NCBI RefSeq assembly: GCF_056712565.1
Contig: NZ_CM160072.1
DNA: 64,000 nucleotides
Direction: 5' to 3' (one strand)
The position numbers were made by a program, and so were the translations under genes. The notes beneath the pieces are model-generated. The model was not told the origin of the DNA. It saw nothing but the letters and a program-made list of their open reading frames with translations, and searched no databases. Positions 2,527-25,068 of the stretch are shown piece after piece (within the stretch, counting starts at the first letter, position 1; the number at the start of each line of letters is the position of its first letter).

Positions 2527-2788
2527 AGGTCGTAAGAAAATTAATGGTCTGGAGATATCTGAATGGTGGGTTCGTAAGCAAATAATGTTGAACTCAGAAC
2601 CATCACGAGATTATGAATTCAATCTGGCAATCCATGAGGATAAGAAAAACAACAAACAGTTATTAAAACTTGTTATGAATTACAGTGTTGACATCTTACA
2701 CGCTGACAATGCATTAACTGAACATGAACTGATGGCGCTGTGGGAAAGTATAACAGGGACAATTAAATATCATCCCACGCAGTGGTAA
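2495..2788 (+). CDS. Small hypothetical protein (97 aa), candidate immunity-family protein
   Basis: ORF directly follows and overlaps the previous gene; a degenerate paralogous copy lies immediately downstream. Confidence 0.35.
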   Translation: METEHGITLYKGRKKINGLEISEWWVRKQIMLNSEPSRDYEFNLAIHEDKKNNKQLLKLVMNYSVDILHADNALTEHELMALWESITGTIKYHPTQW

Positions 2789-2807
2789 AGCAGATAATCA
2801 GAACAGT

Positions 2808-3176
2808 CTGGAGATATCGGAATATACTCGTGGTACTTCAAGTTGCATGGTACGCACAAGGCCCTTGTCGGAAAGGGCTTGGGCTACAGAACTCATTTAC
2901 GTGCATCTTCAAGTTTATCGGGTATAGTAGATTAAACAGCAGATCACGCTAAGTACTGACCCGCTGCAAAATTACAGGTTTTATCTGACAGTCCATGATG
3001 ATAAAAAGAATGGTGGTCAACGGTTAATACTTACGATGACTTATAGCATCAGACCTTCTGAATTCAAAAGAAGTCTTAACCGAACATGAACTGGTTGCCG
3101 TGTTGCAGCAAATGACCAGTACGCTGAAATACCCCCTCTCACAAAACATAAAGATAATGGTATCTCATTTATATCA
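2808..3176 (+). pseudogene. Decayed, frameshifted duplicate of the 2495-2788 gene
   Basis: Translations FYLTVHDDKKNGGQRLILTMTYSI and DLLNSKEVLTEHELVAVLQQMTSTLKYP (different frames) align to EFNLAIHEDKKNNKQLLKLVMNYSV...DILHADNALTEHELMALWESITGTIKYH of the upstream ORF. The 5' end tctggagatatcggaat repeats tctggagatatctgaat at 2549. Confidence 0.45.
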
Positions 3177-3251
3177 ATGACCGGGAATAGGCAACTATAC
3201 TTTCATTTTTTAAATTATTTTCCTGTTGTAAATAAATCAGAGGTAAAAATT

Positions 3252-3512
3252 ATGCCTGGGATCGTTTGTTTAGGTGATGCCACGACTCATGGTGGTAAGG
3301 TGATTACCGCAACTTCAACGCTTTTTATCAATGGCATTCAGGTAGCTCTCGTAGGTGATCTGGTTTCCTGCCCAAAGCACGGCGTGAATCCCATACAAGA
3401 AGGTGACCCGACAGCGACGGAAAAAGGTCGTAATGTCGTTGTTAATCATTGCCAATGTGCATGTGGCTGTAGGGTTATCAGTTCTCAACCAGAAAATAGT
3501 ATCGAGTCATAA
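3252..3512 (+). CDS. Small PAAR-like protein (about 86 aa), candidate T6SS spike-tip protein
   Basis: RBS GAGG before ATG 3252. Gly/Cys/His-rich pattern (CLGDATTHGGKVI...VALVGDLVSCPKHG...HCQCACGC) typical of PAAR. The ORF track start at 3177 is probably too far upstream. Confidence 0.55.
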   Translation: MPGIVCLGDATTHGGKVITATSTLFINGIQVALVGDLVSCPKHGVNPIQEGDPTATEKGRNVVVNHCQCACGCRVISSQPENSIES

Positions 3513-3513
3513 T

Positions 3514-4650
3514 ATGGGATGGCCTGTACCCGATATTCCAGAAAGAAAAATGCTACCTGAGCCTGTTTATCGACGCTGGATTATATTATTAATATCTATG
3601 TTAACAGTTGGTACTCTGTTTATTTTATCGGTCTGGAATTCTGCGACATACTGGGATATTTTTATTTATGGCGTTCTGCCAATGCTGTTTCTTTGGCTAT
3701 GTTTGTTTGGTATTGCGCTGAACAAATATGAACAATCCGTTGCAGCCTGTATAAGTTGGGAGTCTGAAAGACAACAAGTTAAACAACTCTGGCAACACTG
3801 GAGCCAAAAACAACTGGCAATAGTTGGGAATGTTCTTTTTACACCGGAAGAAAAAGGCATGAGTGTTTTACTGGGGCCACAGGAAGAGATCCCTGCATAT
3901 CCTAAAAAGGCACGACCGTTATTCTCTGCATCCCGTTATTCTCTTTCGTCTATATTCCATGATATTCACCAGCAACTGACACAACAATTTCCTGATTATC
4001 GTCATTATCTACATACTATCTACGTATTACAGCCTGAGAAATGGCGTGGAGAAACCGTGAGACAGGCTATTTTCCATCAATGGGACTTAGTACCTGAACG
4101 GACCAATACTCTTAATCAAATCCAGTCTCTTTATGATGAAAGATTTGACGGTCTAATTCTGGTTGTTTGTTTACAAAACTGGCCGGAGAATAAACCTGAA
4201 GATACGAGTGAACTGGTATCAGCACAGCTTATCTCCTCATCGTCATTTGTACGGCAGCACCAGATACCCGTTATTGCTGGTCTGGGGCGTGTAATGCCAT
4301 TAGAACCCGAGGAGTTGGAGCATAATCTGGATGTGTTATTTGAATATAACCAATTGGATAACAAACAACTACAGCATGTCTGGGTCTCTGGTTTAGATGA
4401 GGGAACGATAGAAAACCTTATGCAGTATGCTGAACAACATCAATGGTCACTTCCTAAAAAACGGCCCCTACACATGATTGATCATTCCTTTGGCCCTACA
4501 GGAGAGTTTATTTTTCCTGTCTCTCTGGCAATGCTGTCAGAGGCTGCCAAAGAAACTGAACAAAATCATTTAATTATCTATCAGTCAGCACAGTATGCTC
4601 AGAAAAAGAGCCTTTGCCTGATTACCCGGAAGCTTTATTTAAGGACATGA
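3514..4650 (+). CDS. Inner-membrane protein of unknown function (N-terminal TM segments plus cytoplasmic domain), encoded between PAAR and tssM
   Basis: ATG 3514 lies 1 nt after the PAAR stop. Hydrophobic segments RRWIILLISMLTVGTLFILSVW and IFIYGVLPMLFLWLCLFGIAL. Track start at 3403 would overlap the PAAR gene. Confidence 0.5.
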   Translation: MGWPVPDIPERKMLPEPVYRRWIILLISMLTVGTLFILSVWNSATYWDIFIYGVLPMLFLWLCLFGIALNKYEQSVAACISWESERQQVKQLWQHWSQKQLAIVGNVLFTPEEKGMSVLLGPQEEIPAYPKKARPLFSASRYSLSSIFHDIHQQLTQQFPDYRHYLHTIYVLQPEKWRGETVRQAIFHQWDLVPERTNTLNQIQSLYDERFDGLILVVCLQNWPENKPEDTSELVSAQLISSSSFVRQHQIPVIAGLGRVMPLEPEELEHNLDVLFEYNQLDNKQLQHVWVSGLDEGTIENLMQYAEQHQWSLPKKRPLHMIDHSFGPTGEFIFPVSLAMLSEAAKETEQNHLIIYQSAQYAQKKSLCLITRKLYLRT

Positions 4651-4659
4651 GGAAAAATA

Positions 4660-7600
4660 ATGCATACTCAGCGTTACGGTTTCTGGGGATATTTAATTCT
4701 GATTATTGGTTTGGCAGGGATTTGCGCTCTGTTAATTATTATTAATCAGGATGTTCTGATAAAGAGCGGAGTGTCTGCTCGTCTGATATGGGGAATATGG
4801 GCGGGATTATTTTCTCTTTTTTTACTTGGGGTTGTGTGTTCGCCGTTCTGGTGGATCCGGAAGCAAAGGAAAGCGCAATTTATTTACAGACCAAAAAATT
4901 CGGCAGAAAACGACCAACCCGTATCTTCTCCATCAGAGGATATTTTAACCGATCTCAGCTCAAATATTCGGTTACGCTATGGTCCGTTCTGGCGGCGTAA
5001 AGTCCGCCTGCTGCTGGTGACCGGCGAGCCTGAAGAGGCAGAGGCCATCGCGCCGGGGCTGACCGGGCAACACTGGCTGGAGGGCGACCACACCGTGCTG
5101 ATATATGGCGGCAGGCCAACAGCGGAGCCTGATGTCACACTGCTGACCGCCTTAAAAAAACTGCGCCGCAGCCGTCCGCTGGACGGCATCATCTGGCCGC
5201 TGACAGAAGAACAAAGCCGCCAGACCGCACAACTCGACAAAGGCTGGCGCGAACTGATAAACGGCGGTAAGCGACTCGGTTTTCAGGCTCCACTCTATTT
5301 GTGGCAGGTCTGTGACGACGGTGATTATCAGACCGGACGCCCCCTGCAAAGCGTCGGCTGCCTGCTGCCGGAACGCTGTACCCCGGAACAACTGGCTGTA
5401 ATGCTGGAAGCACAAACCCTGCCGCTGACGGAACAGGGCATGTCGCAACTGCTGGCGGATAACCGCCATGATTTCCTGCTGCGTCTGGCCCATACCCTTG
5501 CAGAGCGGGGTATCGCTCACTGGCAAAGCGTTCTGAAACCGCTGCTGGCAGGCGGCGCATTTTCTTCCCTGCGCCTGCGTGGCCTGATGTTCAGCCCGCC
5601 GCTTGCCGCCGTGCCGGAGGCCGCACCTCATGCGTGGCTGCCGTCACCGGTCTGGGCGGGCGTGACGGGTGATAACGCGCGCGGGCGCACGGTGGGTTTT
5701 CCGTGGCTGCGTACCGCACTGATGTCCGCTGTCTGCGTGCTGGTGATATGGGGGGCCGGAATGACGACCTCGTTCTTCGCCAACCGCGCTCTTGTTCAGG
5801 AAACCGGTATCCAGACGGCGCGTGCGCTCGATACCCGCCTGCCGCTGGCAGAACAACTGGTGGCGCTGCATACCCTGCAGGGCGAACTGGAACGCCTGCA
5901 ATACCGTATCCGCGAAGGTGCGCCGTGGTATCAGCGTTTTGGCCTTGAACGTAACCAACAACTGCTCGCCGCCGCTTTTCCCGGCTATGCGCAGGCGGCA
6001 AACCGGCTGGTGCGCGACGTGGCCGTTGACCATCTGCAACAGCAACTTAATGCCTTTGTCGCGCTGCCGCCCAACAGTCCTCAGCGTACCGCCACCGGTG
6101 AACAACGCTATAAGCAGCTTAAGGCATTGCTGATGACTTCCCGCCCGGAAAAGGCCGACGCTGCCTTTTTCAGTACCACGCTGATGGCGGACGGTCTGCG
6201 CTACGAGAATATCCCGGAAGGTGTGCGGCAGAGCGTGTTGCCGTCACTGCTGACCTTCTGGACGGCGAACCTGCCGGAACACCCGCAGTGGAAAACATCG
6301 CCGCCACCGGAACTGACCGGCGCAGTGCGTAAAATCCTGCTGCGCCAGATTGGTGTGCGTAATGCCGAAAACACCCTCTACCAGAACGTGCTGCAACAGG
6401 TGTCCCGCAACTACGCCGATATGACGCTGGCGGACATGACCGGGGATACCCTCACCGAATCTCTTTTCAGTACGGAACAGACGGTGCCGGGGATGTTCAC
6501 CCGTCAGGCGTGGGAAGGACAGGTCAGGGAAGCCATCGAGCAGGTGGTGACGGCGCGGCGCGAGGAAATCGACTGGGTACTCAGCGACCGCCAGCAGGAT
6601 ACCTCTGCGGATATCTCGCCGGATACGCTGCGTAACCGTCTCACCTCACGCTACTTTACCGACTTTGCCGGAAGCTGGCTGGCGTTTCTCAACAGCATTC
6701 GCTGGAAAAAGGAAGACTCGCTCTCCGGCATTCTCGACCAGCTGACACTGATGGCCGATGCCCGTCAGTCGCCACTGATTGCGCTGACGGACACCCTCGC
6801 GTGGCAGGCGGCGGCAGGCAGGGAAAACCGTGGCCTGTCAGACTCGCTGGCGAAATCGGCACAGGAACTGTTTAACGGCAAGGAGAAAACGCCGCAGCAA
6901 TCCCGTGAAGGCAACGAGCCTGTCGGGCCGCTGGATAAAACCTTCGCGCCGCTACTGCGGTTGCTGGGCGATAAGGCAGGAGGCGGTGGTGGTGATACGC
7001 AACTCAGCCTGCAAACGTATCTGACCCGCGTCACCCGCGTGCGTCTCAAACTGCAACAGGTGACCAACGCCCCCGACCCGCAGGAGATGACCCAGCAACT
7101 GGCGCAGACGGTTTTACAGGGCAAAACCGTTGACCTCACCGACACCCGCGACTACGGACGGTTAATCGCCGCCAGTCTGGGCGAGGAATGGAGTGGCTTC
7201 GGTCAGGCGCTGTTCGTCCGCCCGGTGGAGCAGTCGTGGCGGCAGGTGCTGACGCCTGCGGCGGACAGCCTGAACCGTCAGTGGCAGCGGGCGATAGTCA
7301 GCCACTGGAATCAGGACTTCGCCGGGCGCTATCCGTTCAAAGCCTCACAAAACGATGCCTCTCTTCCCCTGCTGGCACAGTATCTGCGCGATGACGGGCG
7401 CATCAACCAGTTTATCGCCGCCAACCTTTCCGGTGTTCTGAAACGTGAAGGCCGCTACTGGGTGGCTGACGCCATGAACACGCAGGGGCTGACGGTTAAC
7501 CCGGACTTTATCCGCGCCCTGAACCGCCTGCGTGACGTGGCCGACACCGCCTTTGCCAGCGGCGATGCGGGAATACATTTCGAACTGCGGGCAAAACCGG

Positions 7601-8013
7601 CGCGTGACGTGATGAAAACGCATCTGGTGATTGACGGGCAGGAGCTGGAATATTTCAACCAGAAGGAACGCTGGCAGCGTTTCAACTGGCCGGATGAACA
7701 GTGGCAACCCGGCGCATCGCTGAGCTGGACCAGCACGCAGGCGATGGAACGCATTCTGGCGGATTACCGGGGAAGCTGGAGCCTTATTCGCCTGCTGGAA
7801 CAGGCGCAGGTGACACCGGTGGACAGCAGCACCTTTAAGGTGGTGTGGAAAGCGCAGGATGGCCTGCCGCTGAATTACCTGCTGCGGGTTGAACAGGGTA
7901 AAGGGCCGCTGGCGCTGCTGGAGCTGAAAAACTTCCGCCTGCCGGGACAGGTATTTCTGACCGGCAGGAGTATGAAGGATGCGGAAGAGTATGGGGAAGA
8001 CGCCGATGAGTGA
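4660..8013 (+). CDS. tssM: TssM (IcmF-like) T6SS membrane-complex protein, 1117 aa
   Basis: Good RBS GAGGAAAAATA before ATG. Two N-terminal TM helices, cytoplasmic domain, third TM near residue 350 (LRTALMSAVCVLVIWGAGMTTSFF), long periplasmic C-terminal domain. Size and topology fit TssM. High GC. Confidence 0.8.
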   Translation: MHTQRYGFWGYLILIIGLAGICALLIIINQDVLIKSGVSARLIWGIWAGLFSLFLLGVVCSPFWWIRKQRKAQFIYRPKNSAENDQPVSSPSEDILTDLSSNIRLRYGPFWRRKVRLLLVTGEPEEAEAIAPGLTGQHWLEGDHTVLIYGGRPTAEPDVTLLTALKKLRRSRPLDGIIWPLTEEQSRQTAQLDKGWRELINGGKRLGFQAPLYLWQVCDDGDYQTGRPLQSVGCLLPERCTPEQLAVMLEAQTLPLTEQGMSQLLADNRHDFLLRLAHTLAERGIAHWQSVLKPLLAGGAFSSLRLRGLMFSPPLAAVPEAAPHAWLPSPVWAGVTGDNARGRTVGFPWLRTALMSAVCVLVIWGAGMTTSFFANRALVQETGIQTARALDTRLPLAEQLVALHTLQGELERLQYRIREGAPWYQRFGLERNQQLLAAAFPGYAQAANRLVRDVAVDHLQQQLNAFVALPPNSPQRTATGEQRYKQLKALLMTSRPEKADAAFFSTTLMADGLRYENIPEGVRQSVLPSLLTFWTANLPEHPQWKTSPPPELTGAVRKILLRQIGVRNAENTLYQNVLQQVSRNYADMTLADMTGDTLTESLFSTEQTVPGMFTRQAWEGQVREAIEQVVTARREEIDWVLSDRQQDTSADISPDTLRNRLTSRYFTDFAGSWLAFLNSIRWKKEDSLSGILDQLTLMADARQSPLIALTDTLAWQAAAGRENRGLSDSLAKSAQELFNGKEKTPQQSREGNEPVGPLDKTFAPLLRLLGDKAGGGGGDTQLSLQTYLTRVTRVRLKLQQVTNAPDPQEMTQQLAQTVLQGKTVDLTDTRDYGRLIAASLGEEWSGFGQALFVRPVEQSWRQVLTPAADSLNRQWQRAIVSHWNQDFAGRYPFKASQNDASLPLLAQYLRDDGRINQFIAANLSGVLKREGRYWVADAMNTQGLTVNPDFIRALNRLRDVADTAFASGDAGIHFELRAKPARDVMKTHLVIDGQELEYFNQKERWQRFNWPDEQWQPGASLSWTSTQAMERILADYRGSWSLIRLLEQAQVTPVDSSTFKVVWKAQDGLPLNYLLRVEQGKGPLALLELKNFRLPGQVFLTGRSMKDAEEYGEDADE

Positions 8014-9616
8014 ACTGTTGCAAAAGCTGACCCGTAGCTGTTTTGCCGACCGGGATGCACTGGATGTGGCGCGAACACAGGCGGCGCTGTGGCAGACATG
8101 GCTGCTGCCGGTGACGGCAGACACGCCGGTCGGGGAAGACCCCGGCTACCACGACGATTTCCTGCGTATACGCGACGAAATGAACAAACTTTCCGGCACA
8201 GATACCGGCCTTATCTGCCAGCTTGCCGAATCCCTGCTGCTGACGCAGGCCAAAGACGTGCGCATCGCCACTTACTACATCTGGGCGCGACTGCACCGCG
8301 ACGGTGAGCGCGGACTGGCGGAAGGACTGGCGCTGCTGACCGGACTGGTGGAACGCTTCGGTACGCAACTGCTGCCCTCGCGTCCGGCCAGCCGGAAAAT
8401 GGCGCTGGAGTGGCTGGCAGGGGAAAAGATGCTCGACAGCCTTGCCCGCTACCCGGAAGTGGCAAAAGAGGATTTTGCGAACATTGTTGCCGCTCTTAAT
8501 CAACTGACGGTTTCCTTCACTGCATGGCCCGAAGACCAGCATTCCCCCTCCCTGATGCCACTGATTAACGCGCTGGAATCACGTCTGGCGCAGTCGGGCG
8601 GGATGAACGCGGTGGTGCCGCAAAACAGCAGCAGCGTTACTGCACCGTCATCCCCGGTGGATGCGCCACAGGTACAGACCATCACCTCCGGGCGTGACCT
8701 GCTCGACCAGGCGAAAGTGCTGGCCCGTTATCTGAACGAACAGCCGCAGGGCTGGCTTTCGGCGCACCGGCTGATGAAAACCCTGCGCTGGGACACGGTG
8801 CATGAACTGCCGCCGGATGTGGACGGCAAAACCCGGCTGGCCCCGCCGCGCACCGAGTCACGCAACCAGCTTAAGCGGCTGTATGCCCAGCAGAACTGGA
8901 CGGAACTGCTGGAGCAGGCCGACCTGATGTTCAGCACCGGCGTCAGCCATTTCTGGCTGGATATCCAGTGGTATCTGCATCAGGCGCTGACTAAGGCGGG
9001 CGTACCGTGGGACAGGTGGACAGCTGTTATCCGTCAGGACCTGGCGTTACTGCTGGAACGCCTGCCAGGGCTGGAAAATCTGGCATGGAACGACGGCACG
9101 CCGTTCGCCGATGAGGTGACGCGCAACTGGATAGCGCAGCAGGTCATGATGCGGGAAGACGGCGCATGGCTTGCGGGGAAAGCCGCTGTACCGACAGACG
9201 ACGCCACAAATGACGTACTGGCGCTGGAGCCGGAAGCACTGGCGATGGCAGACAGTCAGGGCGTGGAAGCGGCGCTGGGCTGGATACAGACCCGTCCGGG
9301 CATCACCACGGCACGACAGCGCCTGTTATTGCGACTGCTGATGGCGCGGGTGGCGGAACAGTACGGTAAAAACGAGATGGCGCTCCTGCTGCTGGAAGAA
9401 CTGGATACCGCCGCACAGGGAATAACGCTGACGCAGTGGGAGCCAGAACTGCTGTTTGAAGTAAAAGCCCGGCAACTGAAACTGCTGCGTCTGCGGGCGC
9501 ACCGCTATGCGGATAAAGCCCTGCTGAACCGAAAAATGGAAATCCTGCTGGGAACGCTGGTGGCAATCGATCCGGCACGGGCAGCGGTACTGTGTGATAC
9601 GCAACATAAGGACTGA
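8006..9616 (+). CDS. tssA: TssA (ImpA N-terminal domain protein)
   Basis: ImpA_N-like signature ...PVGEDPGYHDDFLRIRDEMNKL...IATYYIWARL...GLALLTGL. ATG 8006 overlaps the tssM stop (ATGAGTGA); alternative in-frame starts at 7979 and 7991. Confidence 0.75.
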   Translation: MSELLQKLTRSCFADRDALDVARTQAALWQTWLLPVTADTPVGEDPGYHDDFLRIRDEMNKLSGTDTGLICQLAESLLLTQAKDVRIATYYIWARLHRDGERGLAEGLALLTGLVERFGTQLLPSRPASRKMALEWLAGEKMLDSLARYPEVAKEDFANIVAALNQLTVSFTAWPEDQHSPSLMPLINALESRLAQSGGMNAVVPQNSSSVTAPSSPVDAPQVQTITSGRDLLDQAKVLARYLNEQPQGWLSAHRLMKTLRWDTVHELPPDVDGKTRLAPPRTESRNQLKRLYAQQNWTELLEQADLMFSTGVSHFWLDIQWYLHQALTKAGVPWDRWTAVIRQDLALLLERLPGLENLAWNDGTPFADEVTRNWIAQQVMMREDGAWLAGKAAVPTDDATNDVLALEPEALAMADSQGVEAALGWIQTRPGITTARQRLLLRLLMARVAEQYGKNEMALLLLEELDTAAQGITLTQWEPELLFEVKARQLKLLRLRAHRYADKALLNRKMEILLGTLVAIDPARAAVLCDTQHKD

Positions 9617-18327: not shown

Positions 18328-19284
18328 TCACAACACGTTTTTTATCTCCCTTCCTGCGAAGTAATCAATTATCGACTGGGCAACGTGTATCCCGGTTTGC
18401 TGGTATGACTCAACGGTGGCGGCCGCGATATGCGGCGTTGTAATGATATTTTTGGCATGTAGCAGTGGGCTAAATTGCGCCAACGGTTCAGAGCTAAACA
18501 CATCCAGCGCCGCAAACACATTTCGTTCTTCAATCACCTGAAGTAAAGCGCCCTCATCCAGCAACTTTCCCCTTGCGGCATTGATGATCAGAGCACCATT
18601 GCGCATCATCGACAAATATTTATGACTAATGAAGTTCTCCAGCTCAGAAGAAAAAGGCAAAAGAACAATGATGACATGCGACTGCATAAAGATATCTTCA
18701 ATTGATACAAACTGAACTCCAGCTTTGTCAGCAACCTGATAGTCGGGTTGTTTGTCAAAAGCTAAAAGCTCAACATCAAAACCGGATAACCTTTTCGCCA
18801 GAGTTTTACCTATATTACCGTAGCCAACCAGGCCAATCCGTTTCCCTTGTAATTCACAGCCATGCGACTCACCCCAGTAGCCATTTTGCATCGCATGATA
18901 GCTGCCAGGGATATTTCTCATGCTCGCGAAGATAAGTCCAATGATAAATTCCGCAACCGCATTTGAATTAATCCCAACCGCATTATTGACAACAATACCG
19001 GATTGCTGTGCCGCACGAAGATCAATATTGTCTATCCCCGTCCCGAATCTCGATATTATTCTCACACCAGGCAGCAATGATAGCGTGTCCGCCTGATAAC
19101 CATCTTTTCCGGCGATGACCGCGCAAATAGATTCTCGTAATGCAGTGGATTCTGATTTAAGCAGATGCTCCACATTATTCTTAATAATAAGATTAAAATT
19201 ATTCTCTCTTAGCAACTTGCTGGCGGAAACACAGCGTGCTGAAAAGCTGGGGAAGGTGACCAGAACATTTTTCATAGCGGACAC
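18328..19284 (-). CDS. D-isomer-specific 2-hydroxyacid dehydrogenase family, NAD-binding (318 aa)
   Basis: GxGxxG motif GLVGYGNIGK and overall family pattern. Last gene of the minus-strand operon. Confidence 0.75.
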   Translation of the reverse strand: MSAMKNVLVTFPSFSARCVSASKLLRENNFNLIIKNNVEHLLKSESTALRESICAVIAGKDGYQADTLSLLPGVRIISRFGTGIDNIDLRAAQQSGIVVNNAVGINSNAVAEFIIGLIFASMRNIPGSYHAMQNGYWGESHGCELQGKRIGLVGYGNIGKTLAKRLSGFDVELLAFDKQPDYQVADKAGVQFVSIEDIFMQSHVIIVLLPFSSELENFISHKYLSMMRNGALIINAARGKLLDEGALLQVIEERNVFAALDVFSSEPLAQFSPLLHAKNIITTPHIAAATVESYQQTGIHVAQSIIDYFAGREIKNVL

Positions 19285-19346
19285 TCACTTCAAAGAACGC
19301 CACCCCAAAAGATGGCGTGACCGGTTACTGTATTTATATTTTGAAA

Positions 19347-19943
19347 TTATGAATTTGCTTTAATGCCGAGTGCACCTCCTGGATGATATAAGCCGAAATC
19401 AGCACGAGTAAATTTTTTCAATTCAGAGAGTGCAAGCGCCACCGCATCACCAACAACCAGAACAACAGTCGACGAGCATGACGGTGCTAAACCTAAATTA
19501 TCCGCCTCACTTTTGACGGGGATTTCAACAGATAAATCACAACTTATCGCAAGCGATGAGTGATGACTGCGGGTAAAAGAGATCAAATAATTACCCATTT
19601 TTTTCAAACTAGGCAGTGTCGCCAGGATTTCCGCCGTCTCACCACTGTTTGAAATAAGAATAACAACATCGTCTTTCGCCACCATTCCAAGGTCGCCGTG
19701 TACCGCTTCCGTACCGTGAACAAAAAACGAGGGAGTTCCGGTACTGGCAAAAGTTGCTGCGAGTTTTCTGGCAATAATACCGGACTTACCAACACCAATA
19801 AAAACAACTTTTCCCTGACAAGATTGTAATACTTTAATTAAATTAGCGAATTCAGAAAGTGGGGAATAAATAACCTCTTCTACTGCTTTAAGTTCGTTAT
19901 GCATAAAATGTTTAATGAGATAGATAAGATCCGTGTTATTCAT
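19347..19943 (-). CDS. SIS-domain sugar-phosphate isomerase-like protein (198 aa)
   Basis: SIS signature VFIGVGKSGIIARKLAATFASTGTPSFFVH...ISNSGET. Confidence 0.7.
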   Translation of the reverse strand: MNNTDLIYLIKHFMHNELKAVEEVIYSPLSEFANLIKVLQSCQGKVVFIGVGKSGIIARKLAATFASTGTPSFFVHGTEAVHGDLGMVAKDDVVILISNSGETAEILATLPSLKKMGNYLISFTRSHHSSLAISCDLSVEIPVKSEADNLGLAPSCSSTVVLVVGDAVALALSELKKFTRADFGLYHPGGALGIKANS

Positions 19944-19945
19944 TT

Positions 19946-21121
19946 TTATTCTCCCTGATTAATATTTTTAATTACACTCACAAGACGCGTAAGCCCCATA
20001 TATAATTTTTCTCGACCGCAGGCCAGGTTCAGACGAAGGTAGCCCTCCCCCTCCGTTCCATAGACATGCCCCGCCATAATGCCCACTTTGCCTTCATGAA
20101 TTAATCGACTGTAGAATTCATCAAAAGGATAACCAATAGCAGAACAATCTATCCAGGAAAAATAGCAACCATCAGCTGGCCTTACGATCAATTCTGGAAT
20201 ATTTTCATTCAGATACTGCTGGGTGAATTGAATGTTAGAGGCAATATGTGCCTTTAATGACTTTAACCATCCCTCACATTCGTTATAGGCAATAATAGTT
20301 GCAATTATATTCAGTACTGATGGGGAGTTTACAAAATCGCGATACCTCGATATCGTTCTGAACTTATGATTAAAATTATCGTCAGTTGAAATCATATACG
20401 ATCCTGTTAGTGCAGGAACATTAAATGTTTTCGATATCGAGTTAAATACTACTACTTTTTCTTTTTTTATTTTAAGCGCGGATGTAAAGCTACGATTAAA
20501 AACAAAATCACTATGGATTTCATCTGAACATAACCAGACATTATGCCTTGTACAGCTTGCAGCGATTTTATGCAGTTCTTCTTCCGACCAGACTGTTCCT
20601 GTCGGGTTATGAGGATTACATAATAACACCATCTTTGCGCTTTTAATCTTAAGATCAAAATCTTGCCAGTTGATAGCGTAGCCCCCCTCATTTTTTATAA
20701 TCAAAGAGGCTGTCAGAATATTTCGCTCGCTATGTTTAATTACATCAAAAAATGCATTATAGACAGGTGTAAAAACGAGAATATTATCACCATGCGATGT
20801 CAATAACTCTATTGCTTTTGCAATAGAGTACATCACACTGGGGCTATAGGTTATCCATTCAGGTTTAATATCTGTTTGATATTGTTGATAATACCAGTTT
20901 ACTATCGCATTCAGATATTCACCATGTTGCCAACGACTGTACCCTAAAATCGGGTGTTCCAGGCGTTTTTTTAATGCTCTGGTGATAGCGTCTGGTATCG
21001 GAAGATCCATATCTGAAATAGAGAATGGTAGTACATCTTTTACACCAAATCTGTCCTCGCAAAAGTCCCATTGGGTACAATATGTTCCTTTGCGGGAAAC
21101 AGGAGTATTAAAAACATCCAT
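19946..21121 (-). CDS. PLP-dependent aminotransferase class I/II, MalY/PatB-like C-S lyase (391 aa)
   Basis: Family pattern including the lysine-containing ...NSISKTFN... region. Overlaps the start of the upstream gene by 1 nt. Confidence 0.75.
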   Translation of the reverse strand: MDVFNTPVSRKGTYCTQWDFCEDRFGVKDVLPFSISDMDLPIPDAITRALKKRLEHPILGYSRWQHGEYLNAIVNWYYQQYQTDIKPEWITYSPSVMYSIAKAIELLTSHGDNILVFTPVYNAFFDVIKHSERNILTASLIIKNEGGYAINWQDFDLKIKSAKMVLLCNPHNPTGTVWSEEELHKIAASCTRHNVWLCSDEIHSDFVFNRSFTSALKIKKEKVVVFNSISKTFNVPALTGSYMISTDDNFNHKFRTISRYRDFVNSPSVLNIIATIIAYNECEGWLKSLKAHIASNIQFTQQYLNENIPELIVRPADGCYFSWIDCSAIGYPFDEFYSRLIHEGKVGIMAGHVYGTEGEGYLRLNLACGREKLYMGLTRLVSVIKNINQGE

Positions 21122-22701
21122 CAGTATATCCCCATATAGTTATCCATATCCCGACGCAGGGCGATGACTTTAGTGCCGATAATGACTTGTAGGGTATTTT
21201 GATCAAGTTTAACAACCGCAATCCCGCCAGCTCTTTTTATTGCAACTTCGTCAATCAATCCCATATCTGCGATTGTTAAACGTAAACGAGTTACGCAATT
21301 ATCCAGTGACTTAATATTCTCTTTACCACCAAGTGCCTTAACCATCTGCTCCGCCGCTTGCAGCTCTGATTTATCAGGAGTTGGGATATCCGCTATAGCC
21401 GTATCTTCGTGAACGTTCAGCGTGACAGGATTGGACTCTTCACGGCCTACGGTCATCAGGTTAAATTTAAGAATGGTCCAACGGAACACAAAGTAATAAA
21501 TGAAGAAATAGGCCACTTCGACACACACCGCGATCGGCCAACCTGTTCTTGTGCCACGCAATACGCCAAAGCTAATAAATTGAATCAGATCGCCAGTAAA
21601 TCCCATCTTCACGCCCATATATGGCAGAACCATGTTAGCGAATCCATTCATAAAGGCATGGAAGACAAACAGCAGTGGACTGACAAATAAGAACAGAAAC
21701 TCAATCGGTTCGCTGACGCCGCCAATAATCACCGTAAGCACCCCGGAAATAAGCAATGCTTTGATAGCCTTTCTGTTTTGAGCATGAGCAGTGCGATACA
21801 TCGCCAGCGCGGCACCAGCCAGACCATACTGAATCATCAGTTTGCCCTGCTCCATTTTCCCCGCCAAATCCAGCGGAATGACCGCATTCTCTTTAACGTA
21901 TGCCATAAACATGTTCAGGGTGCCGTAATATTCTTCGCCGCCAATCACAGCCGAACCGCCGATTGGCGTAAAGCGGAAAACTGACGTCACCAGATGGTTT
22001 AAGCCAAAAGGAATCGTCACACGTTCGGCAACTGCATAGAAGAAATAACCAACAGGACCGGAAGTTGAAATCCAGTGTCCAATGAGCATGAAAAGATTGA
22101 AAAACGGCGGCCAGATAAAAGGAATGATCAGACCAAATCCACTCATCACAATCAGTGTAATGATAGGCACCAGACGTGGGCCGCTATAAAAACCTAATGA
22201 TTCTGGAATGCGTAAATTAACGATCTTTTTATACATGCTGGCGACTAATAACCCAGCAACAATTCCCCCCAACACGCTGGTATTGTAGGACTGGATCCCC
22301 AGAATGATGGTTTGCCCATGTGTCGACATTTGGTCAGCAACGACCAATAAGTCGTGCTGTTTAAGATAAAAGTTCGTTCCCAGATGCATCGCCATAAAAC
22401 CAATTAAGCCAGAAAAAGCACCATAGGCTTTATCCTCTTTATCTTTTAATAATCCTAAGGGAATCGCTATCGCAAACAATACAGGTAAATTAACAAAGGC
22501 AAACAAACCAAGACTAACAATGAAATCAAGTATGGTTTTAATTATTGGAATAGCCAGAAATGGAATTAACTTTGCCATATCATCACTGGCTAAACCACTT
22601 CCCAGCCCTAGCATCATGCCACATACACTTAGCAGAGCAATGGGATACATAAATGCCTTCCCCAGGCTCTGAAAAAAACTCCAGGCTTTCTTTTGTTTCA
22701 T
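21121..22701 (-). CDS. PTS EIICB component, glucose/maltose family (526 aa)
   Basis: Multi-TM EIIC domain and C-terminal EIIB domain with the phospho-cysteine motif NCVTRLRL. Confidence 0.8.
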   Translation of the reverse strand: MKQKKAWSFFQSLGKAFMYPIALLSVCGMMLGLGSGLASDDMAKLIPFLAIPIIKTILDFIVSLGLFAFVNLPVLFAIAIPLGLLKDKEDKAYGAFSGLIGFMAMHLGTNFYLKQHDLLVVADQMSTHGQTIILGIQSYNTSVLGGIVAGLLVASMYKKIVNLRIPESLGFYSGPRLVPIITLIVMSGFGLIIPFIWPPFFNLFMLIGHWISTSGPVGYFFYAVAERVTIPFGLNHLVTSVFRFTPIGGSAVIGGEEYYGTLNMFMAYVKENAVIPLDLAGKMEQGKLMIQYGLAGAALAMYRTAHAQNRKAIKALLISGVLTVIIGGVSEPIEFLFLFVSPLLFVFHAFMNGFANMVLPYMGVKMGFTGDLIQFISFGVLRGTRTGWPIAVCVEVAYFFIYYFVFRWTILKFNLMTVGREESNPVTLNVHEDTAIADIPTPDKSELQAAEQMVKALGGKENIKSLDNCVTRLRLTIADMGLIDEVAIKRAGGIAVVKLDQNTLQVIIGTKVIALRRDMDNYMGIY

Positions 22702-22732
22702 GTGGGTTATCTCATATAAATGTTATATATAA

Positions 22733-23557
22733 TTAGTCCATTAATACTTTGGTACGAATAGAGAGATATAATTTTTCTTCTAAAATTAATTCATATTTAA
22801 AAGTGGCATACAGATACCGTTCAATTTCATGAATTGCGCGCTGTAACAGGATGTCCTTTTCAAGAAACTGTTCATAGATATCACCAATATCTTTCTGTTT
22901 TATTTTTTCATTGCATAACACGCGACTTGAAAAATATTTAAGGTGCATCATAAATCTGGAATAGTTAAATGAACTTCTGTCCACCTTTCTGTTATAAACA
23001 ACTTCAATAAGCTCCGTGATTATTTGCGACAACTCAATAATCCGTACTGATTCATAATCAACTGAATTTTCATAATTATTTAAAATATGCAATGCTATAA
23101 AACCAATCTCATCATCAGGAAGTTGAACGCTGAATTGCTCATTAATGATAGTTAATGCATCGCGACTTATCGCATACTCTGCTTTGTACAACGCTTTGAT
23201 TTCATCAAGGAAAACATTATTAATTTGTATACCTGAAACGACTCGGGATATTGCATTCGAAATGTGATCCGCAAGAATCAATAGTAGCGATGGATTGAGA
23301 TTTTTTTCGAGATTTTTCTCCGCATATTGCACTATTTTTTCGGCAACAAACACATACTCAATATCTACATGTTCAATCAATTTATAAAGTTTGTTTTTTT
23401 GTTCATTTCTGACATAAAAAATCCGGTTAGCCGGATGCTCAGGGACCGACATTCCATATTTTTTGTTGTAACCGACGCCAGGCCCAGAAATGATAACCTC
23501 CTGTCCATTCATCGATGCCTGTACACAATTATTGTTCATGACTTTTTCGATGATCAT
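22733..23557 (-). CDS. BglG/LicT-family transcription antiterminator (CAT RNA-binding domain plus two PRDs)
   Basis: N-terminus MIIEKVMNNNCVQASMNGQEVIISGPGVGYNKKYG resembles the CAT domain of BglG/LicT. The start is moved in from the track ORF because a terminator/RAT leader lies immediately upstream. Confidence 0.75.
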   Translation of the reverse strand: MIIEKVMNNNCVQASMNGQEVIISGPGVGYNKKYGMSVPEHPANRIFYVRNEQKNKLYKLIEHVDIEYVFVAEKIVQYAEKNLEKNLNPSLLLILADHISNAISRVVSGIQINNVFLDEIKALYKAEYAISRDALTIINEQFSVQLPDDEIGFIALHILNNYENSVDYESVRIIELSQIITELIEVVYNRKVDRSSFNYSRFMMHLKYFSSRVLCNEKIKQKDIGDIYEQFLEKDILLQRAIHEIERYLYATFKYELILEEKLYLSIRTKVLMD

Positions 23558-23568
23558 TCCATGGCTCC

Positions 23569-23642
23569 AAAAAAAAAGGCAAGGCACGTCAGAAGTAATA
23601 ACTACTTCAAACATTGCCTTGCCTGATTTAACAGTTACAAGA
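23569..23642 (-). promoter_or_regulatory. RAT-like sequence overlapping a leader terminator (PRD-antiterminator attenuator)
   Basis: On the minus strand, cttgtaactgttaaatcaggcaaggca resembles the bgl RAT (ttgttactg...caggcaaaacc). It overlaps the 5' arm of a hairpin (ggcaaggca / tgccttgcc, inner gaagta/tacttc) that is followed by 9 U, 12 nt before the ATG. Confidence 0.55.
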
Positions 23643-23814
23643 TGATTAACTAATGCGTATACATTACACGGAATTGTGCTTAATTAAAGAGATGGTCGGC
23701 TTATTTTTCAAGCCGACATTCAAATATCCGACATCAGTCACAAAACCAGCGTCTAATATTCAGGTAAATGTTATCTATTCAACGAAATATAAATTCATTG
23801 AATAAATAAAAACA

Positions 23815-25068
23815 TTATCCCCTTCTCGCCAGCGTCGCCCCATCGGCAAAATACGCTTTAATTCCCGCAAGAATAGACTCCGCAACTTCCTGCTGGAAAG
23901 TCGCCGTTTTCAGTTTACGCTCTTCCTCAACGTTACTGATAAACGCCGTTTCGACCAGAATGGAGGGAATATCTGGTGCCTTTAGTACGGCAAACCCGGC
24001 CTGTTCAACTTGATTTTTATGCAGCTTGTTGATTTTACCGAGCTTATTCAGCACCGCTTTACCAAACTTAAGGCTGTCGGCAATGGTCAGCGACTGCACC
24101 ATATCGAACATGGTGTGGTCGACATAGCGGTCACCGCTTTTGCTTACGCCACCAATCAAGTCCGAGGCGTTCTGGGTTTGTGCCAGATATTTTGCCGCAG
24201 TACTGGTTGCGCCTTTGGTTGAGAGCGCAAACACCGAGGAACCGCTCGGCTGGCGACTGGTAAAGGCGTCGGCATGGATAGAAACAAACAAGTCAGCGCG
24301 CTGTTTCTGGGCTTTTGCTACGCGCACTTGCAACGGAATGAAGATGTCTTCATTGCGCGTCATGTACACCTTCATATTGCCCTCTTTCTCGATCAGAGAG
24401 CGCAGACGGCGAGCTATTTGCAATACCACGTCTTTTTCGCGCGTTTTGTATTTCCCCACCGCACCGGAGTCTTCGCCACCGTGGCCAGGGTCAAGCATAA
24501 TGACAATCGGACGATCCCGCCCAGCTTTACCCGGTTGTGGACCACTTTGTGCTGGCGGCACCTGCTTTTCGAGGTCGCCTTTGTTGTAATCCTCCAGCAG
24601 CGCCAGCAGCGGGTCCTGCATATCCTGTGCATTGGCCGGATAGAGGTCCATCACCAGACGCTCTTTAAACCCGGCGACCGGCGCAAGGGCAAACAGCTGC
24701 GGTTTTACGTTTTGCTTTAATTCAAAAACCATACGTACGGTTTGCGGGTCAAATTGCCCGACGCGCGCCGACTTGATGAACGGGTCGTCAGCGCGGATTT
24801 GCGCAGCCATCCCCTTGAGCACCGAGTTCAGGTTTACATCTTCGATATCCACCACCACGCGTTCAGGATTACTCAACGCGAACTGCTTATATTTCAGCTG
24901 ACGATTTGATTCTACCGTCACGCGGGTGTAGCTGGACGCAGGCCAGACGCGCACCGCCACGACCTGGCTGACCGCAGCCAGGCTGACCTGACTTACGCTC
25001 AATAGCCACATGGCACCCGCGCCTTGCAGTAAACGACGACGGCTGATTGCAGTGTTGGATCCTGACAT
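23815..25068 (-). CDS. amiC: N-acetylmuramoyl-L-alanine amidase AmiC (Tat signal)
   Basis: Translation starts [23 protein letters not shown] (twin-arginine signal) with an amidase_3 C-terminal domain. The track ORF carries a 30-codon N-terminal extension. Confidence 0.93.

What the first reader, a model, noticed from the sequence alone, without database searches (positions are those of the whole stretch)
18328..23642. Uncharacterised PTS catabolic operon under antiterminator control
Five co-directional, tightly spaced genes: BglG-type antiterminator, glucose-family EIICB, MalY/PatB-like PLP C-S lyase, SIS isomerase-like protein and a D-2-hydroxyacid dehydrogenase. The combination of a PTS permease with a C-S lyase/aminotransferase and a SIS protein suggests catabolism of an unusual substituted sugar (amino or thio sugar, or a glycated compound). 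I cannot name the substrate.
Basis: inference. Interest (0 to 1): 0.55.

Follow-up and report, generated by a model that had tools for sequence, protein, structure and literature searches.

The report
Known uropathogen PTS operon, substrate unknown
This is the already described paf / c3405-c3410 sugar-uptake operon of extraintestinal pathogenic E. coli: it helps the bacterium infect the mouse urinary tract, one of its enzymes has been characterised and crystallised, but the sugar it acts on is still not known.

Summary
Five intact, tightly packed genes lie on the minus strand at 18328-23557: a LicT/BglG-type antiterminator, a MalX-like EIICB, a PatB/MalY C-S lyase, a SIS-only KpsF/GutQ isomerase and a PGDH-like D-2-hydroxyacid dehydrogenase. 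A leader at 23569-23641 carries a RAT (antiterminator-binding hairpin) that overlaps a strong terminator.

The operon is not uncharacterised. It is 98-100% identical to the CFT073 locus c3405-c3410 next to metV. Its regulator and permease are published as pafR and pafP, both needed for mouse urinary tract infection. Its SIS protein is 196/198 identical to a solved structure (5UQI) and is published as the arabinose-5-phosphate isomerase c3406. I found no paper that names the substrate; a 2026 genome paper still lists the genes by similarity only.

New here:
- The core antiterminator-EIICB-PatB-SIS is shared with Citrobacter, Enterobacter, Enterococcus, C. difficile (CD3027-CD3031) and other gut Firmicutes. 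The dehydrogenase occurs only in E. coli and Citrobacter.
- All 80 closest PatB relatives sit in PTS operons, some alongside peptidases. This hints at a sugar-amino-acid conjugate as substrate (inference).
- The operon lies outside the T6SS (type VI secretion) island's tRNA-Met attachment remnant.

Verdict: already known, with moderate residual interest.

The parts
23618..23641 (-). RAT (ribonucleic antiterminator) element CTTGTAACTGTTAAATCAGGCAAG in the leader
   Evidence: The sequence was read. The motif TTGTWACYGN6YRGGCAA occurs once in the 64-kb window, where 0.01 is expected by chance. The hairpin is conserved across E. coli, Citrobacter, Enterobacter, Enterococcus, C. difficile and the K-12 bglF RAT. 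93.7% of cells are paired and two pairs carry compensatory changes in the apical helix.
23569..23624 (-). Intrinsic terminator: hairpin 23578-23624 plus a run of nine T (23569-23577). Its 5' arm overlaps the 3' part of the RAT.
   Evidence: RNA fold gives -33.6 kcal/mol, z = -3.8, and 0 of 200 shuffles fold as well. The stem carries a compensatory change in Citrobacter: GGCAAGGCA/TGCCTTGCC becomes GGCAAGACA/TGTCTTGCC. The leader is single-copy in 1688 of 5426 complete E. coli genomes.
22733..23557 (-). BglG/LicT-family transcription antiterminator (CAT + PRD1 + PRD2), 274 aa. By inference this is pafR, and by gene order c3410.
   Evidence: NCBIfam LicT 7e-67 and GlcT 2e-52, both below the equivalog cut-offs. 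PDB LicT PRD and CAT-PRD1 at about 1e-31. The His residues matching LicT H100, H159 and H207 are conserved; the H269 position is Arg. RefSeq calls it a PRD domain-containing protein.
21121..22701 (-). PTS glucose-family EIICB permease of the MalX subfamily, 526 aa, without an EIIA domain. By inference this is pafP, and by gene order c3408.
   Evidence: TIGR02004 malX IIBC 1.1e-160 (535.6 bits, cut-off 632) and PtsG-type 4e-105. The EIIB motif NCVTRLRL and the EIIC motif GGVSEPIEF are visible in the translation. It is 62-84% identical to the EIICB of the same four-gene module in other genera and in Firmicutes, and 40-46% identical to the EIICB of ordinary MalX-MalY pairs.
19946..21121 (-). PatB/MalY-family PLP-dependent C-S (beta) lyase, 391 aa; c3407 by gene order
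   Evidence: TIGR04350 scores 364.6 bits, above its cut-off of 340. The best PDB match is E. coli MalY 1D2F at 6e-86; the SxSK lysine (K231) aligns with the SGSK motif of MalY. K231, D200, N172, Y121 and R363 are invariant in seven module homologues.
19347..19943 (-). SIS-only sugar-phosphate isomerase of the KpsF/GutQ type without CBS domains, 198 aa (c3406, arabinose-5-phosphate isomerase)
   Evidence: It matches KdsD at 1.2e-58 over profile positions 35-201 of 328, which is the SIS part only. It is 196/198 identical to PDB 5UQI/5VHU, 'Phosphosugar isomerase'. The Mosberg 2011 title and citation were seen.
18328..19275 (-). NAD-dependent D-2-hydroxyacid dehydrogenase, PGDH-like, 315 aa (c3405 by gene order)
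   Evidence: NCBIfam PGDH 6.2e-64 and glyoxylate reductase 1e-49, all below equivalog cut-offs. The best PDB match is the short PGDH 1WWK at 2.3e-49. In the species sample it is present only in the E. coli and Citrobacter versions of the module.
18265..18294 (-). Hairpin downstream of the last gene (CCGCAAT...ATTGCGG then TTTGT). It is shared with the metZWV tRNA operon terminator and is the likely end of the transcript.
   Evidence: Sequence, fold and alignment to the non-B2 E. coli locus L006, 93% identity over 106 nt. The role as the paf terminator is inferred.

Best explanation
This is the paf / c3405-c3410 operon of extraintestinal pathogenic E. coli. It is a horizontally acquired, self-regulated PTS module inserted between amiC and the metZWV tRNA genes.

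Regulation. Transcription starts upstream of a leader whose default fold is an intrinsic terminator. When the cognate sugar is present, the EIICB permease (PafP) passes its phosphoryl group to the sugar instead of to PRD1 of the antiterminator (PafR). PafR then dimerises, binds the RAT hairpin, blocks terminator formation and lets the five genes be read through. The system therefore autoinduces.

Uptake. PafP has no EIIA domain. It presumably takes phosphate from EIIA-Glc (Crr), then imports and phosphorylates a hexose-like compound.

Processing. The three enzymes act on the phosphorylated product:
- The PatB/MalY-type PLP enzyme removes an amino-acid-type (Cys/Ser-like) substituent by beta-elimination, giving a 2-oxo acid and ammonia.
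- The SIS-only isomerase interconverts the resulting aldose phosphate (arabinose-5-P, or something shaped like it) with its ketose (ribulose-5-P) for entry into the pentose phosphate pathway.
- The PGDH-like dehydrogenase reduces or oxidises a 2-oxo/2-hydroxy acid by-product. It is an add-on found only in E. coli and Citrobacter.

What is shown here:
- gene identities
- RAT and terminator
- identity with the CFT073 locus and with PDB 5UQI
- conservation of the four-gene core

Taken from the literature:
- the mouse UTI phenotype of pafR/pafP
- the arabinose-5-P isomerase activity of c3406

Inferred:
- use of Crr
- the direction of phosphoryl control
- the whole enzymatic route
- the nature of the substrate

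My confidence is about 0.95 for identity, 0.85 for the antitermination mechanism, and 0.3 for the class 'sugar carrying an amino-acid-type substituent'.
For: Identity with the known locus:
- 100% DNA identity to S88, APEC O1 and other B2 strains.
- Same gene order and 98-100% protein identity in CFT073, next to the T6SS genes of the metV island.
- Bryant 2010 places c3405-c3410, 'PTS maltose/glucose specific', in PAI-CFT073-metV.
- The SIS protein is 196/198 identical to PDB 5UQI.
- The review PMC8882828 reports that pafR, a regulator encoded on the metV island, and pafP are needed for bladder and kidney colonisation in mice.

Regulation:
- A RAT overlaps a strong terminator.
- The motif is unique in the window.
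- Compensatory changes occur in the RAT apical helix and in the terminator stem.
- The CAT and PRD domains are present, with three of four regulatory His residues conserved.

Uptake: the permease is IICB only. The homologous modules of C. difficile, Clostridium, Massilicoli and Solobacterium carry a glucose-family EIIA gene next to them.

Coupling of the enzymes to the permease:
- Antiterminator-EIICB-PatB-SIS is conserved in 10 of 80 species loci across Enterobacteriaceae and Firmicutes.
- 71 of the 80 closest PatB relatives directly follow a MalX-type EIICB. The other 9 lie in Frv-like or Lac/Cel-type PTS operons, several with M20, M42 or M24 peptidases.
- In-frame PatB-SIS fusion proteins exist in some E. 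coli and Shigella.
- All five genes have dN/dS of 0.05-0.15.
- The catalytic residues of the PLP enzyme are invariant.
Against: - No substrate is known. From my memory of Baum et al. 2014 (paper not held), no in vitro condition induced the paf promoter, and PafR's natural targets were called unknown.
- The consensus scan finds no promoter-like site on the minus strand upstream of the leader.
- The permease, antiterminator and dehydrogenase all score below the NCBIfam equivalog cut-offs, so specificity cannot be read from homology.
- A beta-lyase acting on a sugar conjugate has no experimental precedent that I could find.
- E. coli MalY and C. difficile MalY are known only as cystathionase or cysteine desulfhydrase in vitro.
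- No glycosidase or aldolase is encoded, and I cannot write a route that necessarily yields arabinose-5-P.
- The PRD2 histidine equivalent to LicT H269 is Arg in E. coli and Citrobacter, so control by HPr may differ from the LicT model.
Confidence: 0.6

Rival explanations
1. The locus is mainly a sensor. PafP detects a host-derived sugar, and PafR then antiterminates or otherwise controls genes elsewhere (virulence, biofilm, motility). The downstream enzymes are incidental.
For: The review PMC8882828 summarises that PafR expression changes virulence, biofilm and metabolism genes and inhibits biofilm and motility, and that pafR/pafP mutants are attenuated in mice. From my memory of Baum 2014, the authors describe a 'Bgl-like sensory system'.
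Against: - The leader exists in one copy per genome in 1688 of the 5426 complete E. coli genomes searched.
- The RAT motif occurs once in the window. No second target is visible by similarity, although diverged RATs would be missed.
- The enzyme genes are translationally coupled to the permease gene and are under purifying selection.
- They are co-inherited with the permease in non-pathogenic gut bacteria.
Confidence: 0.2
2. It is a redundant glucose/maltose PTS, a MalX-MalY paralogue. On this view the extra enzymes moonlight:
- the MalY-like protein acts as a cysteine desulfhydrase/cystathionase or a regulator
- the SIS protein supplies extra arabinose-5-P for Kdo in LPS and capsule
- the dehydrogenase is unrelated to the sugar
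For: - The best family hits are MalX and MalY, and Bryant 2010 labels the set 'maltose/glucose specific'.
- C. difficile MalY is a cysteine desulfhydrase in vitro.
- A review treats c3406 as an LPS-precursor enzyme.
- From my memory of Mosberg 2011, c3406 complements an isomerase-deficient strain.
Against: - The permease scores below the MalX cut-offs and is only about 41% identical to MalX.
- The SIS gene is co-inherited with this permease subtype in Gram-positive bacteria (C. difficile, Clostridium, Enterococcus, Solobacterium). By general knowledge these make no Kdo.
- The SIS gene is absent from all 61 ordinary MalX-MalY-type pairs in the sample.
- In the C. difficile glucose/CcpA data set, only the regulator gene CD3031 appears in the expression table and it is not glucose-induced (ratio 0.69). 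CD3027-CD3029 do not appear in the supplementary files, and CD3030 appears only in a cre-site list.
Confidence: 0.12
3. It is silent, decaying island cargo, a cryptic operon like bgl in K-12, with no current function.
For: The region has low G+C, which is typical of H-NS-silenced DNA. There is no consensus promoter. From my memory of Baum 2014, no in vitro induction was found. Frameshift or fusion variants exist in some strains.
Against: - All five ORFs are intact in the window and are annotated as intact genes, not pseudogenes, in the S88 and CFT073 records. 1686 complete genomes carry at least 80% of the region.
- dN/dS is 0.05-0.15 between two old alleles.
- Mutants have a mouse infection phenotype.
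- The homologous C. difficile operon changes expression by up to 20-fold in biofilm and in vivo.
Confidence: 0.05

Closest known systems
E. coli CFT073 c3405-c3410 / pafR-pafP locus (PAI-CFT073-metV)
   Same: It is the same locus. Gene order and flanks (T6SS genes, amiC, argA, recD) are identical, and protein identity is 98-100%. The SIS protein is 196/198 identical to the crystallised protein 5UQI.
   Different: Only strain-level substitutions. The window matches the ST95-type strains S88 and APEC O1 at 100%. tssF in the neighbouring T6SS cluster is frameshifted in CFT073 and intact in the window.
Clostridioides difficile CD3027-CD3031 (antiterminator, malX, malY, phosphosugar isomerase, EIIA)
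   Same: The core order antiterminator-EIICB-PatB-SIS is the same. Identities are EIICB 69%, PatB 49%, SIS 52% and antiterminator 38%. The RAT core TTGTAACTG...CAGGCAA is shared.
   Different: - C. difficile encodes its own EIIA and lacks the dehydrogenase.
- Its RAT-terminator lies between the antiterminator and the permease, in four tandem 104-nt copies.
- All four PRD histidines are kept.
E. coli K-12 malI-malX-malY
   Same: A MalX-type EIICB is directly followed by a MalY/PatB PLP lyase. The pairing recurs in 71 of 80 related loci.
   Different: - Identity is only about 41% (MalX) and 36% (MalY).
- Regulation is by the LacI-type repressor MalI, not by antitermination.
- There is no SIS gene and no dehydrogenase.
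E. coli bglG-bglF-bglB and B. subtilis LicT/SacY systems
   Same: - A CAT-PRD-PRD antiterminator.
- A RAT hairpin overlapping a terminator, placed upstream of the regulator gene as in bgl.
- A cognate glucose-superfamily EII.
   Different: - The permease belongs to the MalX branch, not the beta-glucoside branch.
- No phospho-glycosidase is encoded.
- There is a single RAT instead of the two in bgl.
- The H269-equivalent residue is Arg.
gutQ in the E. coli glucitol (srl/gut) PTS operon; kdsD and kpsF
   Same: An arabinose-5-P isomerase paralogue embedded in a PTS sugar operon. The SIS domain is about 52% identical to that of KdsD.
   Different: GutQ, KdsD and KpsF carry two C-terminal CBS domains, according to their roughly 320-aa profiles. 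This protein is the SIS domain alone, 198 aa.
Fructoselysine/glucoselysine PTS operons (gfr, frl) and MurP-MurQ
   Same: The logic is the same: a PTS permease combined with a SIS-domain enzyme that removes a non-sugar substituent from the phosphorylated product.
   Different: The SIS protein here is KdsD-like. It matches the MurQ etherase only at 3.8e-6, and no deglycase family appears among its hits. The gfr permease belongs to the mannose family.

Membership tests
CFT073 c3405-c3410 / paf locus | Same chromosomal position (next to the metV island T6SS genes and amiC) and near-identical sequence | tested here: met
   NC_004431.1 3249590-3254819 has the same five genes, and tblastn identity is 98-100%. 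Bryant 2010 places c3405-c3410 in PAI-CFT073-metV. RefSeq no longer shows the old locus tags, so the tag-to-gene mapping rests on gene order and on c3406 matching the SIS protein.
CFT073 c3405-c3410 / paf locus | Contribution to urinary tract colonisation in mice | not testable with these tools
   Reported for pafRP and pafP in the review PMC8882828. The primary papers (Lloyd 2009, Baum 2014) are not held.
BglG/SacY/LicT antitermination systems | Regulator with an N-terminal CAT RNA-binding domain and two PRDs | tested here: met
   The LicT profile matches residues 1-268 at 7e-67. Pfam CAT_RBD and PRD are recorded for the orthologues. PDB LicT CAT-PRD1 and PRD1-PRD2 match at about 1e-31.
BglG/SacY/LicT antitermination systems | Four conserved phosphorylatable histidines (LicT H100, H159, H207, H269) | tested here: inconclusive
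   Three are conserved. The H269 position is Arg in E. coli and Citrobacter but His in the Enterobacter, Enterococcus and clostridial homologues. Residue numbers for LicT are from my own knowledge.
BglG/SacY/LicT antitermination systems | RAT hairpin that partly overlaps an intrinsic terminator in the leader | tested here: met
   RAT at 23618-23641 and terminator at 23569-23624 overlap by 7 nt. There is covariation in the RAT and in the terminator stem. The motif is unique in the window.
BglG/SacY/LicT antitermination systems | Antitermination activity, and its control by the cognate EII | not testable with these tools
   From my memory of the Baum 2014 abstract, PafR can act as an antiterminator. 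The paper is not held.
PTS glucose-family EIICB, MalX subfamily | EIIC plus EIIB domains with the phosphorylatable Cys motif, and a score above the family cut-off | tested here: inconclusive
   The domains and the CVTRLR and GVSEPIEF motifs are present. The score of 535.6 bits is below the TIGR02004 cut-off of 632.2, and 523.5 is below the 665 of PRK10110. It is a relative of MalX, not an equivalog.
PatB/MalY C-S lyase family | Score above the TIGR04350 cut-off and a conserved PLP-binding lysine | tested here: met
   364.6 bits against a cut-off of 340. K231 in SISK aligns with the MalY SGSK motif. The catalytic set is invariant in seven homologues. Enzyme activity was not tested.
KpsF/GutQ/KdsD arabinose-5-phosphate isomerases | SIS domain of the KdsD type | tested here: met
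   KdsD matches at 1.2e-58 over the SIS region. PDB 2XHZ, the KdsD SIS domain, matches at 6e-41.
KpsF/GutQ/KdsD arabinose-5-phosphate isomerases | Two C-terminal CBS domains | tested here: not met
   The protein is 198 aa and covers profile positions 35-201 of 328 only. The TIGR00393 score of 191.8 is below its cut-off of 203.7. This is the published peculiarity of c3406.
KpsF/GutQ/KdsD arabinose-5-phosphate isomerases | Arabinose-5-P / ribulose-5-P isomerase activity | not testable with these tools
   Claimed by Mosberg 2011; the title and a review statement were seen. The protein was crystallised as 5UQI/5VHU.
D-isomer-specific 2-hydroxyacid dehydrogenases (PGDH-like) | 2-Hacid_dh catalytic and NAD-binding domains, and an equivalog-level match to a defined enzyme | tested here: inconclusive
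   Family membership is clear: PGDH 6e-64, Pfam 2-Hacid_dh and 2-Hacid_dh_C in the orthologues, and PDB 1WWK at 2e-49. Every equivalog cut-off is missed, so the substrate is undefined.

The most novel reading that the evidence does not exclude
PatB/MalY-type PLP beta-lyases may be dedicated partners of PTS permeases. Within the closest subfamily they occur with three different PTS families, several times alongside M20, M42 or M24 peptidases. That would mark an unrecognised class of PTS substrates: sugars linked to a Cys/Ser-type amino acid or short peptide (O- or S-glycosyl amino acids, or sugar-cysteine adducts). These would be taken up, phosphorylated and then released by enzymatic beta-elimination instead of by a glycosidase.

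On this reading the paf operon is the uropathogen's version. Its product is funnelled through arabinose-5-P, and the long-standing puzzle of what MalX-MalY is for has the same answer.
Probability: 0.2. Interest if true: 0.7.

Novelty: already known. Interest (0 to 1): 0.35.

Why it matters
The locus is one of the few metabolic gene sets that is enriched in extraintestinal pathogenic E. coli. It is present in 31% of complete E. coli genomes and has a published fitness phenotype in the mouse urinary tract. Its C. difficile counterpart is among the most strongly regulated operons in biofilm and in vivo data sets.

The missing piece is the inducing and transported compound. Naming it would identify a host- or diet-derived nutrient or signal used during infection. 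It would probably also explain the MalX-MalY pairing that has been unexplained in E. coli K-12 for decades.

For the scan itself, the finding is a correct reading of the sequence, but it is a rediscovery and not a new system.

Tried and rejected
- Rfam found no RNA family in 18000-24000 at E up to 1, so the RAT had to be shown by motif, fold and covariation.
- The sigma-70 scan found no candidate promoter on the minus strand upstream of the leader.
- The primary papers could not be read: Mosberg 2011, Lloyd 2009 and Baum 2014. Their content is cited from reviews or from memory and is marked as such.
- Literature searches for a function of PatB/MalY in PTS operons, or for a physiological MalX/MalY substrate, gave nothing.
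- The C. difficile glucose/CcpA data set was checked for glucose induction of CD3027-CD3031, and none is recorded.
- A second RAT or leader copy elsewhere in E. coli genomes or in the window was sought and not found.
- A MurQ-like etherase role for the SIS protein was rejected: MurQ matches at only 3.8e-6, against 1e-58 for KdsD.
- An FrlB/GfrE-type deglycase role was rejected, because no deglycase family is among its NCBIfam hits.
- A 6-phospho-3-hexuloisomerase role is unlikely, with HxlB at 2e-13 only.
- A kanosamine-type route (3-oxo-sugar aminotransferase plus dehydrogenase) was considered and set aside. By my own knowledge those aminotransferases belong to the DegT family, not the PatB family.
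- I could not derive a necessary chemical route from any candidate substrate to arabinose-5-P, so none is claimed.

Full report
**1. What is in the sequence**

Positions 18328-23557 carry five intact ORFs on the minus strand.

| Gene | Coordinates |
|---|---|
| Antiterminator | 22733-23557 |
| EIICB permease | 21121-22701 |
| PatB/MalY-like PLP enzyme | 19946-21121 |
| SIS protein | 19347-19943 |
| D-2-hydroxyacid dehydrogenase | 18328-19275 |

The gaps are 31 nt, a 1-nt overlap, 2 nt and 71 nt, so the genes form one unit. RefSeq annotates exactly these genes on identical DNA in S88 and many other strains. The mechanical ORF for the antiterminator runs up to 23614. The annotated ATG at 23557 follows a GGAG and lies downstream of the leader terminator, so it is the real start.

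NCBIfam confirms each family:
- LicT-like antiterminator, 7e-67.
- MalX-type IIBC without an EIIA domain, 1e-160, below the curated cut-off.
- PatB C-S lyase, 364.6 bits, above the cut-off of 340.
- KdsD/KpsF-type SIS domain, 1e-58, with no CBS region.
- PGDH-like dehydrogenase, 6e-64, below all equivalog cut-offs.

The region is 33-49% G+C per 500-base window, against 52-61% in the flanking genes. This indicates horizontal acquisition.

**2. The leader**

Upstream of the antiterminator gene the transcript would contain CTTGTAACTGTTAAATCAGGCAAG (23641-23618). Its 3' part is also the 5' arm of a long hairpin (23624-23578), which is followed by nine U residues. Three lines of evidence support it:
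- The fold is -33.6 kcal/mol with z = -3.8, and none of 200 shuffles fold as well.
- A RAT-type motif occurs once in the 64-kb window, where 0.01 is expected.
- The same element precedes the orthologous operons of a second E. coli allele, Citrobacter, Enterobacter and Enterococcus termitis.

In C. difficile the element lies between the antiterminator and the permease.

I aligned these elements with the K-12 bglG-bglF RAT, taken from the genome. The two RAT helices are 93.7% paired. The apical helix shows compensatory G:C to A:U and U:A to C:G changes, and no shuffle reaches the observed covariation score. The terminator stem also carries a compensatory change in Citrobacter. Rfam has no matching family.

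The regulator keeps the histidines that correspond to LicT H100, H159 and H207. The H269 position is Arg in E. coli and Citrobacter only. Antiterminator control in the BglG/LicT manner is therefore well supported by the sequence.

**3. It is a known locus**

The CFT073 chromosome has the same five genes between the T6SS genes of the metV island and amiC-argA-recD, with 98-100% protein identity. The published record is as follows:
- Bryant et al. 2010 list c3405-c3410 as a 'PTS system, maltose/glucose specific' set inside PAI-CFT073-metV. It is present in all four UPEC strains examined, plus E2348 and SMS-3-5.
- The SIS protein is 196/198 identical to PDB 5UQI/5VHU.
- Mosberg et al. [quoted passage not shown]
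- A 2022 review reports that pafR, a regulator encoded on the metV island, and pafP are needed for bladder and kidney colonisation in mice. It also reports that PafR expression alters biofilm, motility and virulence genes.
- This pair is the only PRD regulator and PTS permease in the part of the CFT073 metV region that I retrieved, so I equate them with pafR and pafP by inference.

From memory, because the papers are not held:
- Lloyd et al. 2009 showed that deleting c3405-c3410 attenuates CFT073.
- Mosberg et al. showed isomerase activity for c3406 and complementation of an isomerase-deficient strain.
- Baum et al. 2014 showed that PafR can antiterminate, and found no in vitro condition that induced the paf promoter.

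A 2026 genome paper on APEC strain BEN2908 still describes the five ORFs only by similarity: 32% SerA, 52% KdsD, 36% MalY, 41% MalX and 30% BglG. None of my searches found a named substrate.

**4. Comparative genomics**

I followed the PatB-like protein outwards and read the genomic context of its relatives.

The same five genes occur in Citrobacter at a different chromosomal site. They also occur in non-B2 E. coli at the same site but without the T6SS cluster.

The four-gene core (antiterminator-EIICB-PatB-SIS), without the dehydrogenase, is found in:
- Enterobacter species
- a Clostridium MAG
- C. difficile, with an added EIIA gene

The C. difficile locus is CD3027-CD3031. It is known there as a putative glucose-maltose PTS with malY. 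It is up to 20-fold up in biofilm and strongly down in a fliC mutant in vivo.

A scan of one genome per species returned the 80 closest loci. Scoring them by tblastn and ORF clustering gave the following.

| Context of the PatB gene | Loci (of 80) |
|---|---|
| Directly after a MalX-type EIICB | 71 |
| of these, full antiterminator-EIICB-PatB-SIS module | 10 |
| of these 10, also with the dehydrogenase (E. coli, two Citrobacter) | 3 |
| EIICB-PatB pairs with an RpiR-type regulator | 32 |
| EIICB-PatB pairs with MalI | 15 |
| EIICB-PatB pairs with an Mga-like regulator | 9 |
| Frv-like PTS operons, where annotated with a PepT-like M20 peptidase | 6 |
| Lac/Cel-type PTS operons, where annotated with YpdE-like M42 and YpdF-like M24 peptidases | 3 |
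| No PTS gene nearby | 0 |

The 10 full modules come from E. coli, Citrobacter, Enterobacter, Enterococcus termitis, Clostridium, C. difficile, Massilicoli and Solobacterium.

Within the four-gene module the permease is 62-84% identical across phyla. In ordinary MalX-MalY pairs it is 40-46% identical. The SIS gene therefore travels with one particular permease subtype, including in Gram-positive bacteria, which by general knowledge make no Kdo.

Some E. coli and Shigella encode in-frame PatB-SIS fusion proteins. Between the two E. coli alleles all five genes have dN/dS of 0.05-0.15. The PLP lysine and the other catalytic residues are invariant.

**5. Most likely mechanism**

The regulatory part follows the Bgl/LicT model. 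Without substrate, PafP phosphorylates PafR and the leader terminates. With substrate, PafR binds the RAT and the operon reads through.

PafP lacks an EIIA domain, while relatives in Firmicutes carry a glucose-family EIIA gene next door. Use of Crr in E. coli is therefore the natural inference.

The enzymatic part is inferred only. The strict linkage of this PatB subfamily to PTS permeases, the absence of any glycosidase, and the peptidases in sister operons all suggest the same thing. The transported compound would carry an amino-acid-type substituent that is removed by PLP-dependent beta-elimination. The SIS isomerase would then pass the sugar phosphate (arabinose-5-P or a look-alike) to the pentose phosphate pathway. 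The PGDH-like enzyme, a late add-on in E. coli and Citrobacter, would act on a 2-oxo or 2-hydroxy acid.

I cannot write a chemically necessary route to arabinose-5-P, and I give this part about 0.3.

**6. Rivals**

- *Pure sensor that controls distant virulence genes.* This fits the published PafR overexpression effects. It does not fit the single-copy leader or the conserved, selected enzyme genes.
- *Redundant glucose/maltose PTS with moonlighting enzymes.* This fits the family names. It does not fit the co-inheritance of the SIS gene in Gram-positives, nor the absence of recorded glucose induction in C. difficile.
- *Cryptic, decaying cargo.* This is contradicted by intact genes in the window and in the annotated S88 and CFT073 records, by 1686-1688 genomes carrying the region and its leader, by purifying selection, and by the mouse phenotype.

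**7. Position relative to the island**

Downstream of the dehydrogenase gene the sequence matches non-B2 E. coli for 106 nt. The match runs through the metZWV terminator hairpin and the first 17 nt of the 3' end of tRNA-Met, and then diverges into the T6SS island. In non-B2 strains three intact tRNA-Met genes and mltA follow directly.

The T6SS island is therefore a separate insertion into metV. The PTS operon lies outside that attachment remnant, between amiC and the tRNA genes.

**8. Verdict**

The operon is nevertheless already described, genetically tested in vivo and partly characterised biochemically and structurally.

Novelty: already known. Residual interest lies in the unsolved substrate and in the general PatB-PTS association documented here.

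Noticed in passing
window 18235-18294: A 17-nt copy of the 3' end of tRNA-Met (TGGTTGCGGGGGCC...) follows the metZWV terminator hairpin, and then homology to non-B2 E. coli stops. This looks like the attachment-site remnant of the T6SS island (window 1-18026) inserted into metV. The PTS operon lies outside that boundary, and in non-B2 strains it is followed directly by three tRNA-Met genes and mltA.
   Followed up: partly
L004 5974-6392 (C. difficile, between antiterminator and EIICB): There are four tandem 104-nt repeats, 92% matching. Each holds a complete RAT (GGATTGTAACTG..GCAGGCAAAACC) and its own terminator, giving four antitermination checkpoints in series before the permease gene.
   Followed up: partly
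L013-L092 (80 species loci): Every one of the 80 closest PatB/MalY relatives lies in a PTS operon. 71 sit behind a MalX-type EIICB, 6 in Frv-like operons (with a PepT-like M20 peptidase where annotated) and 3 in Lac/Cel-type operons (with YpdE- and YpdF-like peptidases where annotated). The sample is limited to the closest subfamily picked by two peptide patterns.
   Followed up: partly
window 22733-22760 (C-terminus of the antiterminator); L003, L006: The last PRD2 histidine (LicT H269 position, motif LYLSIH) is Arg in E. coli and Citrobacter. It is His in the Enterobacter, Enterococcus, C. difficile and Clostridium homologues. The change coincides with the lineages that carry the extra dehydrogenase gene.
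   Followed up: partly
proteins P0004, P0005, P0009, P0010 (E. coli, Shigella): These are in-frame fusions of the PatB-like lyase and the SIS isomerase, 550-592 aa. Of the two I read, P0004 joins the complete proteins and P0009 joins them through an internal deletion.
   Followed up: partly
window 18328-23557 versus L006: Two old alleles of the operon exist in E. coli, with dS of 0.08-0.51. The PatB gene is much more diverged than its neighbours (85% amino-acid identity against 95-97%, and dS 0.51). This suggests a mosaic history within the operon.
   Followed up: partly
window 12898-14658; L008 19165-20923: The neighbouring T6SS baseplate gene tssF is intact in the window (586 aa), but it is annotated as frameshifted in CFT073.
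   Followed up: no
window 23695-23717: A 9-bp hairpin (GTCGGCTT..AAGCCGAC) lies about 100 nt downstream of amiC and just upstream of the paf leader. It is probably the amiC terminator, which would insulate the paf promoter region from amiC read-through.
   Followed up: no
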